Below are positions 49,595-50,389 of a DNA stretch of 64,000 nucleotides, piece after piece; within the stretch, counting starts at the first letter, position 1; each line of letters begins with the position of its first letter. Origin of the DNA: Eubacteriales bacterium (GTDB taxonomy: Bacteria > Bacillota > Clostridia > Oscillospirales > QAKW01). The stretch covers positions 26,786-90,785 of the forward strand of contig JAZQJA010000042.1 of assembly GCA_045541455.1 (NCBI GenBank), in the 5' to 3' direction. Both the position numbers and the translations under genes were made by a program. Below the pieces are notes generated by a model. The model had not been told where the DNA came from. It saw only the letters and a program-made list of their open reading frames with translations, and searched no databases.

Positions 49595-50389
49595 TCATTG
49601 TATATAGAATTTAAAAATCTCTTTTGCCCAGCCGAGCCAAGACGGAACATTGCCATCAAGCCACTGCACAACCTTTGGTATATCTGCCGTTGTCAGATCT
49701 CCGATGTGGCTGTAAACACTTCCATTTGCCGCAGATTGACCAATAGCAATCATAGCGTGGGCGTGGTCGCCAACGGCGGCATAATTGCCGATAGCAAGTG
49801 CACCTGTTGAGAAGTAGCCAACCGAGAGCGCTCCGAAGGATATTAGTCCTACGCTAATTGCACCTGCAGCAAATAAGCCGAGAGCAATCGAGCCAACTGC
49901 AAGAAGTCCGGCTGAGAACACGCCTGCGGAAATCAAGCCTAGGGACAGAAGTCCAATAGAGATTACTCCAAGTGAAAATAGACCAACCGAGAAAACACCT
50001 CGTGAAAGCAGACCGAAGGAAAATACTCCACGCGCCTTAAGTCCTATTGCAAAGAATCCGTGTGCGTTTCTTCCGATATGATAAAGAGGCATACCGAAAA
50101 ACATCTTTTTGCTCTTGCGTTCGTGAAGCTGTTTTTTAAACTTATCCCAAATGCTTTCTTTTTCTGCAGGTTGTAACCCTTGCTTTTTTGTAATATCCTC
50201 ATTGAGAAGATAATCCATCGAACATTTAAACAACTTTCCCATTTTTATAAGCTTTTCGGTTTCGGGATATGCGATATCCGACTCCCATTTGCTGATCGAC
50301 TGACGGGAAACGCTAAGAATATCAGCAAGCTGTTCTTGTGTATAGTTGTATTCTTTTCTGAGTTTTGATAGTTTTTCGCCAAGTGTCAT
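49595..50389 (-). CDS. XRE-family HTH protein fused to ~19 hydrophobic pentapeptide repeats
   Basis: The N-terminal LGEKLSKLRKEYNYTQEQLADILSVSRQSISKWE is a Cro/C1-type HTH. Residues ~116-210 are tandem [S/A]xG-hydrophobic-hydrophobic 5-mers. The ATG at 50389 lies 8 nt after AAGGAG. Confidence 0.75.
   Translation of the reverse strand: MTLGEKLSKLRKEYNYTQEQLADILSVSRQSISKWESDIAYPETEKLIKMGKLFKCSMDYLLNEDITKKQGLQPAEKESIWDKFKKQLHERKSKKMFFGMPLYHIGRNAHGFFAIGLKARGVFSFGLLSRGVFSVGLFSLGVISIGLLSLGLISAGVFSAGLLAVGSIALGLFAAGAISVGLISFGALSVGYFSTGALAIGNYAAVGDHAHAMIAIGQSAANGSVYSHIGDLTTADIPKVVQWLDGNVPSWLGWAKEIFKFYIQ

What the first reader, a model, noticed from the sequence alone, without database searches (positions are those of the whole stretch)
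49766..50050. XRE HTH fused to ~19 tandem hydrophobic pentapeptide repeats (G-[LVA]-[FLI]-[SA]-x)
After a Cro/C1 HTH and a basic linker, residues ~116-210 read AIGLK ARGVF SFGLL SRGVF SVGLF SLGVI SIGLL SLGLI SAGVF SAGLL AVGSI ALGLF AAGAI SVGLI SFGAL SVGYF STGAL AIGNY AAVGD. This is a strict 5-residue period, visible as a 15-nt periodicity in the DNA.
In phase, the pattern has a small residue at i-2 (Gly), a large hydrophobic residue at i (F/L/I) and Ser/Ala at i+1. That fits the interior-facing positions of the pentapeptide-repeat right-handed beta-helix (A[D/N]LXX). The normally polar outward positions are hydrophobic here.
This suggests one of two things. It may be a beta-helix with a greasy surface, either membrane-embedded or self-associating. 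Alternatively it may be an unusual glycine-rich multi-TM anchor tethering a DNA-binding domain. I do not recognise this as a described family.
Basis: partly seen in the sequence, partly recalled or inferred. Interest (0 to 1): 0.55.

Follow-up and report, generated by a model that had tools for sequence, protein, structure and literature searches.

The report
Greasy beta-coil anchor on a regulator
A gut-bacterial DNA-binding regulator carries a tail of about 20 strictly repeated five-residue units that most likely coil into an extremely narrow, fat-soluble beta-spring, which may span the membrane; no such membrane anchor has been described.

Summary
ORF 49595-50395 (-) encodes a 266-aa protein with an XRE/Cro-C1 HTH, a flexible basic linker, and 20 in-register pentads x-G-x-x-[S/A] (Gly 20/20, Ser/Ala 20/20). 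More degenerate polar repeats and two C-terminal helices follow.

The protein belongs to a large unannotated family: about 1,900 clusters at 50% identity, and the named relatives are Clostridia. Source names only say "HTH transcriptional regulator".

AlphaFold2 predicts one continuous beta-solenoid (pLDDT 96-98), not TM helices. Foldseek finds no solved analogue and no canonical pentapeptide-repeat protein.

Three tests that do not depend on AF2 point to a structural unit of 10 residues (two pentads):
- Column profiles are most alike at lag 10.
- Core indels are +/-10 residues.
- Covariation peaks sharply at i/i+10 and is absent at i+3, i+4 and i+7.

The register GxxSxGxxSx equals the GxxNxGxxNx "shortest possible" ten-residue coil that AF2 predicts for mycobacterial PPE repeats (PF01469). 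Here every variable position is hydrophobic.

A 60-residue belt (6 coils, about 29 A) has no charged residue in 104 of 120 diverse members. The N flank is basic and the C flank is neutral.

Best reading: a self-contained, probably autoregulated, membrane-tethered XRE regulator whose anchor is a hydrophobic beta-solenoid. Membrane insertion is inferred and untested.

The parts
49595..50395 (-). Whole gene: 266-aa XRE-HTH protein with a hydrophobic pentad-repeat C-terminal domain (stop codon included)
   Evidence: ORF list. There are 2,446 homologues at E<=1e-3, and the best 120 are 83-93% identical.
50201..50386 (-). [quoted passage not shown]
   Evidence: Pfam HTH_3 E 2.7e-14 and HTH_19 E 6.5e-12. 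The AF2 helices superpose on P22 c2, ImmR and SinR N-domains (TMt 0.8-0.9, rmsd 1.0-1.4 A for the top hits).
50123..50200 (-). Flexible linker, residues 66-91; its length varies across the family
   Evidence: pLDDT about 65. In homologues the repeat-domain match starts between about residue 77 and 215 (sequences).
50078..50122 (-). Conserved basic pre-repeat motif ERKSKKMFFGMPLYH, residues 92-106 (family consensus EYKSKxxxxGLPLVHI). Probably the N-terminal cap and first turns of the solenoid on the cytoplasmic side.
   Evidence: S95 and P103 are invariant; E92, L104 and H106 are at least 90% conserved. AF2 places short strands here. K/R fraction is 0.6-0.8.
49778..50077 (-). 20 in-register pentads x-G-x-x-[S/A], residues 107-206, equal to ten decapeptide coils
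   Evidence: 20/20 Gly, 20/20 Ser/Ala. AF2 gives continuous strand at pLDDT 96-98. Lag-10 profile similarity, +/-10 indels and i/i+10 covariation.
49817..49996 (-). Family-wide charge-free hydrophobic belt, residues 134-193 (60 aa, six 10-residue coils, about 29 A if the rise is 4.8 A per coil)
   Evidence: 104 of 120 members below 80% identity have no K/R/D/E in these columns. In the window protein itself no charged residue occurs between R132 and D210.
49703..49777 (-). Degenerate polar repeats after a one-residue register shift, residues 207-231 (AVGDHAHAMIAIGQSAANGSVYSHI): the polar C-terminal turns of the solenoid
   Evidence: AF2 strand continues to residue 231. Conserved A207, G209, A212, A217 and G225.
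49601..49684 (-). Two C-terminal amphipathic, Trp-rich helices, residues 238-265 (conserved VPxxLxW motif). Probably a cap or an interface element.
   Evidence: AF2 helices H238-249 and H252-265, pLDDT 93-97. P251 is at least 90% conserved; Trp/Tyr fraction is 0.7 at one column.
50396..50510 (-). Conserved upstream block that travels with the gene. It holds a promoter-like site (TTTAGA-16-TATGAT with TG, 50452-50479), a second TATAAT (50432-50437) and the RBS AAGGAGA (50397-50403).
   Evidence: Promoter scan. The alignment of 61 related loci keeps about 110 nt conserved whatever lies upstream.
50412..50426 (-). Position of the candidate operator. Relatives carry the palindrome AACGCnGCGTT between the TATAAT and the RBS; in this window it is degenerate (AACGCaACGCT).
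   Evidence: A perfect 5+1+5 palindrome is present in 48 of 62 upstream regions. Two show the compensated form ATCGCgGCGAT.
49567..49588 (-). Intrinsic-terminator-like hairpin (9 bp, 7 GC, then a T run) starting 7 nt after the stop codon

Best explanation
The gene encodes a stand-alone, probably self-regulating one-component transcription regulator. Its N-terminal XRE helix-turn-helix binds DNA. A flexible basic linker joins it to a C-terminal domain that folds as a very narrow parallel beta-solenoid. Each turn of that solenoid is ten residues, that is two pentads, G-x-x-[S/A]-x-G-x-x-[S/A]-x.

In this model Gly makes the two tight corners and the invariant Ser/Ala fills the tiny core. The three remaining positions of every pentad point outward and are almost always I/L/V/F. 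The rod is therefore inside-out: small or polar residues inside, greasy residues all round.

Six consecutive turns (60 residues, about 29 A) carry no charge anywhere in the family. Lys/Arg-rich turns lie on the HTH side. Polar, aromatic-rich turns and two amphipathic helices lie on the far side. The most likely role of the rod is to cross the cytoplasmic membrane once as a beta-solenoid anchor, N-terminus inside and C-terminal about 60 residues outside or at the outer interface. This would hold the regulator at the membrane, where envelope or membrane state could control it.

Shown: the repeat, its conservation, the 10-residue unit, the AF2 fold, the hydrophobic belt, the charge asymmetry, and the gene's own promoter, candidate operator and terminator. 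Inferred: which residues face in or out, membrane insertion and topology, autoregulation, and any signal.
For: 1. AF2 with a 96-sequence alignment gives pLDDT 94.3 with continuous strand over residues 110-231. The C-terminal domain alone gives pLDDT 95.8 and pTM 0.78.
2. Sequence tests independent of AF2 agree on a 10-residue unit.
   - Column-profile divergence is lowest at lag 10: 0.147, against 0.25 at lag 5, 0.27 at lag 15 and 0.23 at lag 20.
   - The core length G123-G198 is 75 or 76 residues in 84 of 96 members, 85/86 in 8 and 65 in 2. Indels are therefore +/-10, never +/-5 or +/-15.
   - APC-corrected mutual information is 0.083 at lag 10, against 0.024 (lag 5), -0.005 (lag 15), 0.014 (lag 20) and about 0 at lags 3, 4 and 7. 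Of the top 100 covarying pairs, 24 are at lag 10 where 2 are expected (p 3e-19).
3. Gly and Ser/Ala are each at least 0.87 in essentially every core pentad, while positions 1, 3 and 4 vary among hydrophobic residues.
4. The 60-column belt is free of charged residues in 104 of 120 members. N-flank net charge is +4.65 and C-flank net charge is -0.83.
5. There is a precedent for the coil. AF2 predicts a ten-residue coil GXXNXGXXNX, 'the shortest possible', for PF01469 PPE repeats (PMC9663297, main text and Suppl. Fig. 6). Four prediction methods agree on PF01469 (PMC11795689). The window protein hits PF01469 weakly (16.8 bits).
6. The gene has its own promoter-like site and terminator. About 110 nt of upstream sequence, with the palindrome AACGCnGCGTT, is conserved in different genomic contexts.
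7. Neighbouring paralogous XRE proteins have ordinary TM segments separated by charged loops, unlike this uninterrupted belt.
Against: - No experiment exists for any member.
- AF2 is known to give confident but wrong beta-solenoids for repeat sequences (PMC11795689). I could not inspect the model coordinates, so I could not confirm that the model's coil is ten residues or which side chains face inward.
- No ten-residue-coil solenoid has been solved, and no ribosomally made transmembrane beta-solenoid is known. A literature search found only gramicidin-type peptides.
- How Sec/YidC would insert such a structure is unclear.
- Lag-10 covariation could partly reflect subfamily-wide ladder changes (for example the Ala/Gly columns 85/95/105) rather than direct contacts.
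- The C flank is not strongly depleted of Lys/Arg (5.2 K/R against 6.1 D/E in 72 columns), so an outside location is only weakly indicated.
- The candidate operator is degenerate in this window's own copy.
Confidence: 0.5

Rival explanations
1. It is an ordinary membrane-bound XRE regulator of the BcrR type. The hydrophobic stretch forms three (or more) Gly/Ser-rich alpha-helical membrane spans, and the AF2 solenoid is a repeat-induced artefact.
For: - Kyte-Doolittle hydropathy over 19 residues is 1.5-2.0 across residues 131-189. Any TM predictor would probably call helices, but none was run.
- Sixty residues equal three 20-residue helices.
- Helical membrane-bound HTH regulators are common, and BcrR is among the known examples (PMC10269533).
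- AF2 over-predicts solenoids on repeats (PMC11795689).
Against: - A strict period of 5 with invariant Gly and Ser/Ala runs without phase breaks through 100 residues. It does not match helical periodicity (3.6), and the would-be loops do not interrupt it.
- No polar or charged loop residues occur in 104 of 120 members.
- There is no covariation at i+3, i+4 or i+7, but a sharp peak at i+10.
- Indels come in units of 10 residues, which would offset a helical span by half its length.
- The repeats are diverged, with no DNA tandem repeat. The paper reports artefacts for (near-)perfect repeats and found agreement between methods for diverged families.
Confidence: 0.2
2. The solenoid is real but not membrane-spanning. 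The greasy rods bundle or polymerise in the cytoplasm or on the inner face of the membrane, like bactofilin or a functional amyloid. This would oligomerise or sequester the HTH.
For: - Beta-solenoids often assemble end-to-end or side-by-side (general knowledge).
- No insertion problem arises.
- The C flank is not clearly K/R-poor.
- The best Foldseek hits, although weak, are to fibrous or trimeric beta-proteins: a YadA-like head and left-handed beta-helix trimers.
Against: - All three outward positions are apolar round the whole circumference for exactly six turns, with no charge in 104 of 120 members. A soluble oligomer normally keeps at least one solvent-exposed face.
- Belt length is tightly conserved at about 29 A and is flanked by basic and aromatic residues. 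That is the pattern of a bilayer-matched segment.
Confidence: 0.2
3. It is a canonical pentapeptide-repeat protein (PF00805; Qnr/MfpA/Rfr fold; square coil of four pentads) with a hydrophobic surface.
For: - The repeat has a five-residue period.
- A small residue and a large hydrophobic residue lie two apart, as in A[D/N]LXX (sequence).
Against: - No Pfam Pentapeptide (PF00805), Pentapeptide_3 or Pentapeptide_4 hit appeared even at E<=10.
- Foldseek against the PDB returned no pentapeptide-repeat structure. Its best hits were left-handed beta-helices at TM 0.13-0.2. A viral 'Pentapeptide' model ranked 39th with E 4.5.
- Covariation and profile similarity peak at lag 10, not 20, and indels are +/-10.
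Confidence: 0.05

Closest known systems
PF01469 (Pentapeptide_2) repeats of mycobacterial PPE-MPTR proteins. AF2 predicts a beta-solenoid with a ten-residue coil GXXNXGXXNX (Akdel et al. 2022, PMC9663297).
   Same: - The register is the same: Gly every five residues and a small or polar residue three positions after it (GxxNx against GxxSx).
- Two pentads form one coil. Here this is supported by lag-10 covariation and +/-10 indels.
- There are weak sub-threshold HMM matches (16.8 bits here; 18-22 bits in homologues).
- In both cases the fold is predicted only, not solved.
   Different: - The score is below Pfam's cut-off (26.4 bits).
- Asn is replaced by Ser/Ala, and all variable positions are hydrophobic rather than Gly/Asn-rich and polar.
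- The array length is fixed (about 10-12 coils), not a long variable array.
- It is fused to a cytoplasmic DNA-binding domain in Clostridia, not to a secreted PPE domain in mycobacteria.
BcrR and other transmembrane transcription regulators (one-component, membrane-bound HTH regulators; PMC10269533)
   Same: - An N-terminal helix-turn-helix domain is followed by a hydrophobic C-terminal region in a single polypeptide.
- It probably binds DNA while tethered to the membrane.
- In this window an ABC-2 transporter operon lies next to the gene. From my own knowledge, BcrR has an XRE-type HTH and controls the bcrABD ABC transporter.
   Different: - From my own knowledge, BcrR has four alpha-helical spans and no pentad repeat.
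- Here the anchor is a repeat with beta-solenoid signatures.
- The ABC transporter neighbourhood is kept in only 11 of 72 related loci, so no regulon link is established.
Canonical pentapeptide-repeat proteins (PF00805: Qnr, MfpA, Rfr32; right-handed quadrilateral beta-helix; PMC8145042)
   Same: Five-residue sequence period and a parallel beta-solenoid.
   Different: - They have 20 residues per coil with Leu/Phe and Ala in the core and a polar surface.
- There is no HMM or Foldseek match here.
- The unit here is 10 residues.
Midge antifreeze protein, modelled as a 10-residue-coil solenoid (Basu et al. 2016, as described in PMC13080227)
   Same: - Ten residues per coil, with two Gly in the turns.
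- Only one small residue per half-coil points inward: Cys there, Ser/Ala here by analogy.
   Different: - It is a eukaryotic secreted protein, braced by disulfides, with a polar Tyr ice-binding face.
- There is no sequence relationship.
- It is also only a model.
- The motif xxCxGxYCxG is quoted from memory, not from a tool result.

Membership tests
XRE / Cro-C1 HTH transcription regulators (PF01381 HTH_3) | HMM match above Pfam's gathering score | tested here: met
   53.4 bits against a cut-off of 23, residues 10-63
XRE / Cro-C1 HTH transcription regulators (PF01381 HTH_3) | Five-helix lambda-repressor-like fold | tested here: met
   The AF2 model superposes on P22 c2, ImmR and SinR N-domains: TMt 0.8-0.9, rmsd 1.0-1.4 A for the top hits
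XRE / Cro-C1 HTH transcription regulators (PF01381 HTH_3) | Sequence-specific binding to a (pseudo)palindromic operator | not testable with these tools
   There is only a candidate: AACGCnGCGTT is conserved upstream in 48 of 62 loci and is degenerate in this window
Canonical pentapeptide-repeat proteins (PF00805) | HMM match to PF00805 or related Pentapeptide models | tested here: not met
   Not listed even at E<=10
Canonical pentapeptide-repeat proteins (PF00805) | Quadrilateral coil of four pentads (20 residues), similar to solved Qnr/MfpA/Rfr structures | tested here: not met
   Foldseek against the PDB found no such hit. The periodicity of profiles, indels and covariation is 10.
PF01469 Pentapeptide_2 (PPE-MPTR type ten-residue-coil solenoid) | HMM match above the gathering score (26.4 bits) | tested here: not met
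   16.8 bits, E 0.0066, four stretches. Homologues score 16.8-21.7 bits.
PF01469 Pentapeptide_2 (PPE-MPTR type ten-residue-coil solenoid) | Repeat register G-x-x-[N]-x, with two pentads per coil | tested here: inconclusive
   - The register G-x-x-[S/A]-x is the same, with Ser/Ala in place of Asn.
- The 10-residue unit is supported by sequence statistics.
- The coil geometry of the AF2 model could not be read, because no coordinates are available.
Transmembrane transcription regulators (membrane-bound one-component regulators, e.g. BcrR) | A DNA-binding domain and a membrane-spanning region in one polypeptide | tested here: inconclusive
   - The HTH is shown.
- A 60-77-residue charge-free hydrophobic belt with a basic N flank is shown.
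- Actual membrane insertion is not testable here, and no TM-topology predictor was available.
Transmembrane transcription regulators (membrane-bound one-component regulators, e.g. BcrR) | Alpha-helical transmembrane segments | tested here: not met
   AF2 predicts strand throughout. No helical-spacing covariation and no loops are seen.

The most novel reading that the evidence does not exclude
This family would be the first natural, ribosomally made protein whose membrane anchor is a single transmembrane beta-solenoid. The anchor would be a ten-residue-per-turn coil with a Ser/Ala core, Gly corners and an all-hydrophobic exterior. Its six charge-free turns would match the thickness of the bilayer. 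That would add a third architecture for integral membrane segments, beside alpha-helical bundles and beta-barrels, and here it tethers a transcription factor.
Probability: 0.35. Interest if true: 0.9.

Novelty: new variant of a known kind. Interest (0 to 1): 0.66.

Why it matters
Integral membrane proteins are currently taken to be either alpha-helical bundles or beta-barrels. A hydrophobic, bilayer-length beta-solenoid would be a new way to cross or embed in a membrane, and it would raise the question of how it is inserted.

The family also offers a compact, well-conserved and abundant test case for the "shortest possible" ten-residue coil. That coil has so far been predicted only for mycobacterial PPE proteins and has never been solved.

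On the practical side, the family has about 1,900 clusters at 50% identity. The named relatives come from gut and rumen Clostridia. Current annotation calls them only "HTH transcriptional regulator", and a helix-based topology predictor would probably describe them wrongly. Defining the domain would improve annotation of membrane-linked gene regulation in the gut microbiome.

Tried and rejected
- **Tandem Repeats Finder** on the DNA found nothing, so this is not a recent DNA repeat.
- **Sequence search of PDB chains** with the C-terminal domain gave only chance-level hits (best Cap2, E 0.04).
- **Foldseek with the full-length model** was swamped by HTH hits. I therefore modelled the C-terminal domain separately. 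It had no PDB match with E<=0.001. The best BFVD match was a YadA-like head at TMq 0.30.
- **The Pfam GLTT hit** (28 bits, above its cut-off of 21) was rejected as compositional. From memory, GLTT is a short repeat of unknown function in C. elegans proteins. Its 28-residue model matched several short stretches of the repeat.
- **NCBIfam, PHROGs and PADLOC** matched only the HTH and gave nothing for the repeat domain.
- **A conserved operon** was sought and not found.
  - The ABC-2 transporter upstream is kept in 11 of 72 loci.
  - Other contexts differ: rpsB/tsf, DUF4097, MscS and a GFO/IDH/MocA-family (Gfo_Idh_MocA Pfam hit) gene.
  - A link to the nearby M50-like protease is not supported. 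It is kept in only 2 loci and sits with a different HTH gene.
- **The search for related loci with the domain alignment** failed for lack of a conserved 7-10-column stretch. The single-protein scan worked.
- **Phage and plasmid collections** gave no phage hit and one chromid-like plasmid of Pusillibacter. This is not a typical mobile-element repressor.
- **Rfam** found nothing in the conserved leader.
- **Cluster look-up** gave no organism names or characterised members.
- **Literature searches** for a transmembrane beta-helix or beta-solenoid found only gramicidin-type peptides.
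Full report

Yes. The region lies in one ORF, window 49595-50395 on the minus strand, 266 aa. Read in pentads from residue 107, the sequence is IGRNA HGFFA IGLKA RGVFS FGLLS RGVFS VGLFS LGVIS IGLLS LGLIS AGVFS AGLLA VGSIA LGLFA AGAIS VGLIS FGALS VGYFS TGALA IGNYA.

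Position 2 is Gly in 20 of 20 pentads and position 5 is Ser or Ala in 20 of 20. Positions 1, 3 and 4 are mostly I/V/L/F. The period-5 signal for Gly and for Ser/Ala was never equalled in 20,000 shuffles.

The DNA shows 0.48 identity at lag 15 against about 0.24 at other in-frame lags. Tandem Repeats Finder reports no DNA repeat. The periodicity therefore comes from selection on the protein.

After residue 206 a one-residue shift is followed by degenerate polar repeats (AVGDHAHAMIAIGQSAANGSVYSHI) and then two helices. Otherwise they describe the right thing.

**2. The rest of the protein and the gene**

Residues 10-63 are a Cro/C1 (XRE) HTH (HTH_3, 53 bits). In the model this domain superposes on P22 c2, ImmR and SinR. 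Residues 66-91 are a low-confidence linker (pLDDT about 65).

Residues 92-106, ERKSKKMFFGMPLYH, form a conserved basic motif. S95 and P103 are invariant, and E92, L104 and H106 are at least 90% conserved.

The gene has a promoter-like site (TTTAGA-16-TATGAT with an upstream TG, 50452-50479). A strong terminator-like hairpin starts 7 nt after the stop codon (49567-49588). It is therefore its own transcription unit.

**3. The family**

The full protein finds 2,446 relatives. The best 120 are 83-93% identical. The few that carry a source name are MAGs labelled Clostridia or Oscillospiraceae.

The repeat domain alone finds 1,916 cluster representatives at 50% identity with E<=1e-3, and 332 at E<=1e-10. 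Most are 245-300 aa with the same layout.

The few non-HTH hits are giant low-complexity proteins, for example a 1,034-aa protein with GAVSVGEVNI repeats. I regard these as compositional matches.

Sources name these proteins only "helix-turn-helix transcriptional regulator". Pfam, NCBIfam, PHROGs, PADLOC and PDB sequences have nothing for the repeat domain. The exceptions are a compositional GLTT hit and a sub-threshold PF01469 hit.

Genome hits are gut and rumen Clostridia: Oscillospiraceae, Acutalibacteraceae and the isolate Ruminococcus sp. zg-924. There are no phage hits and one chromid-like plasmid hit.

**4. Fold**

AF2 with 96 aligned relatives gives pLDDT 94.3. Every residue from 110 to 231 is in strand, followed by helices 238-249 and 252-265. 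The domain alone gives pLDDT 95.8 and pTM 0.78. This is not a set of TM helices.

Foldseek against the PDB finds nothing at E<=0.001. The best hits are left-handed beta-helices (gamma-carbonic anhydrase, GlmU) at TM 0.13-0.2. No pentapeptide-repeat protein appears. Against viral models the best hit is a YadA-like head (TMq 0.30).

AF2 is known to produce confident but unrealistic solenoids for repeats (PMC11795689). I also could not see the coordinates. I therefore looked for evidence in the sequences alone.

**5. Evidence independent of AF2: the unit is ten residues**

- **(a) Column profiles.** Amino-acid profiles of aligned columns are most alike at a distance of 10 (Jensen-Shannon divergence 0.147). 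The values are 0.25 at 5, 0.27 at 15, 0.23 at 20 and 0.28 at 30.
- **(b) Indels.** Between the invariant G123 and G198 the length is 75 in 57 sequences, 76 in 27, 85/86 in 8 and 65 in 2. Whole decads are gained or lost, never single pentads.
- **(c) Covariation.** In 120 sequences below 80% identity, APC-corrected mutual information averages 0.083 at lag 10. It is 0.024 at lag 5, -0.005 at lag 15, 0.014 at lag 20 and about 0 at lags 3, 4 and 7. Of the 100 strongest pairs, 24 are exactly 10 apart where 2 are expected (p about 3e-19).

Residues i and i+10 behave as stacked neighbours. Helical contacts leave no trace. This argues for a parallel solenoid with two pentads per turn. It argues against both a helical bundle and the 20-residue square coil of canonical pentapeptide-repeat proteins.

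**6. What is inside and what is outside (inference)**

Ten residues give a perimeter of only about 35 A, so only very small side chains fit inside. The two positions that never vary are Gly and Ser/Ala, each at least 0.87 in essentially every core pentad of the family. The natural assignment is Gly at the two corners and Ser/Ala in the core. Positions 1, 3 and 4 would then all point outward.

Those positions vary freely, but only among hydrophobic residues. This is the inside-out pattern of a lipid-exposed protein.

The same register has been described before. [quoted passage not shown] Fig. 6). Pratt et al. found that four prediction methods agree on PF01469.

The window protein's repeat is GxxSxGxxSx, and it hits PF01469 weakly (16.8 bits, below the 26.4 cut-off). 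The midge antifreeze protein is another ten-residue-coil model, with two Gly in the turns and only Cys pointing inward (PMC13080227).

**7. The hydrophobic belt**

In the family profile, 60 consecutive columns (target residues 134-193, six coils) contain no K/R/D/E in 104 of 120 sequences and at most one in the rest. Asn/Gln/His and Pro are also rare. At 4.8 A per coil (textbook beta-sheet spacing) that is about 29 A, which is about the hydrophobic thickness of a bilayer.

The 40 columns before the belt have a net charge of +4.65 (the EYKSKK motif and Lys/Arg in the first four pentads). The 72 columns after it have -0.83. Tyr/Trp-rich positions lie on the C-terminal side: GYF, GNY and the VPxxLxW helices.

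The HTH must be cytoplasmic. The simplest topology is therefore N-in, one crossing, C-terminal about 60 residues out or at the outer interface. The C flank is not strongly K/R-poor, so this is only moderately supported.

A neighbouring paralogous XRE protein found beside many family members shows ordinary TM segments separated by charged loops. That contrast underlines how unusual the uninterrupted belt is.

**8. Context and likely regulation**

In the window the gene follows, on the same strand, a second XRE gene, an M50-like membrane protein, an ABC ATPase and an ABC-2 permease. The transporter is upstream in only 11 of 72 related loci and the M50-like gene in 2. Other relatives sit next to rpsB/tsf, DUF4097, MscS or oxidoreductase genes. 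The commonest neighbour, in 14 loci, is another membrane XRE protein.

What does travel with the gene is about 110 nt of upstream DNA. It is conserved in 61 loci whatever lies further upstream. It contains the promoter-like elements. Between a TATAAT and the RBS it also contains the palindrome AACGCnGCGTT. That palindrome is perfect in 48 of 62 regions, and two regions carry the doubly compensated ATCGCgGCGAT.

This is a reasonable candidate for the protein's own operator, hence autoregulation (inference). In the window's copy it is degenerate (AACGCaACGCT, 50412-50426).

**9. Verdict**

The intuition of a beta-helix with a greasy surface is supported. The specific A[D/N]LXX fold and the proposed inward residues are not.

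The best explanation is a self-contained membrane-tethered XRE regulator whose anchor is a hydrophobic ten-residue-coil beta-solenoid (confidence 0.5 for the whole statement).

The main rivals are these:
- Helical spans with an AF2 artefact: 0.2.
- A real solenoid that bundles rather than spans the membrane: 0.2.
- A canonical pentapeptide-repeat protein: 0.05.

The fold type has a predicted precedent in PF01469. The hydrophobic version, its fusion to a DNA-binding domain and its possible transmembrane role are new, so I rate it "new variant of a known kind". If the transmembrane reading holds, it would be a new architectural class of membrane segment.

Noticed in passing
window 49137-49509 (with tRNA-Leu at 49070-49154, + strand): A roughly 202-nt unit is tandemly duplicated just downstream of the gene (90-98% identity). 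Each copy begins with the 3' end of tRNA-Leu(GAG) (GTCCCGTCTTTCGCACCA recurs at 49340). Each copy also holds two terminator-like hairpins and an inverted copy of the tRNA T-arm. It could be an att-like scar of an integrated element or a duplicated tRNA 3' end.
   Followed up: partly
window 50520-54419 (- strand): This looks like an operon of a second, soluble XRE-HTH protein (true start probably MKMTLGEK at 54419), an M50-like multi-pass membrane protein with an HExxH motif, an ABC ATPase and an ABC-2 permease. The repressor-plus-metalloprotease pairing recalls ImmR/ImmA-type modules, but with a membrane protease.
   Followed up: partly
window 47692-48145 (+ strand): A MazF/PemK toxin gene (47789-48145) follows alanine racemase with only a 97-nt gap. 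No ORF of at least 25 aa lies on that strand where a MazE/NdoAI-type antitoxin gene would be expected.
   Followed up: no
L005, L006, L026, L027, L050, L059, L062 (about 170 nt downstream of the homologue) and 14 loci overall: Family members are often followed or preceded on the same strand by another XRE-HTH gene whose product has ordinary helical TM segments. This suggests tandem arrays of membrane-tethered XRE regulators. At least two MAGs (JAXJTD01, JAGANE01) also carry two hits to the pentad protein on separate contigs.
   Followed up: partly
window residues 92-106 of the protein (50078-50122, - strand): The pre-repeat motif has a nearly invariant Glu, Ser, Pro and His (E92, S95, P103, H106; family consensus EYKSKxxxxGLPLVHI). 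Whether it is only a solenoid cap or a functional site, such as a cleavage or metal-binding site, is unexplained.
   Followed up: no
L092 (Pusillibacter faecalis pMM59_01, 316459-317109): The only plasmid or chromid homologue is a shorter 'XRE family transcriptional regulator'. It lies directly after a recombinase gene and next to pheT/pheS. pheS also lies about 5 kb from the gene in this window, which may be residual synteny.
   Followed up: no
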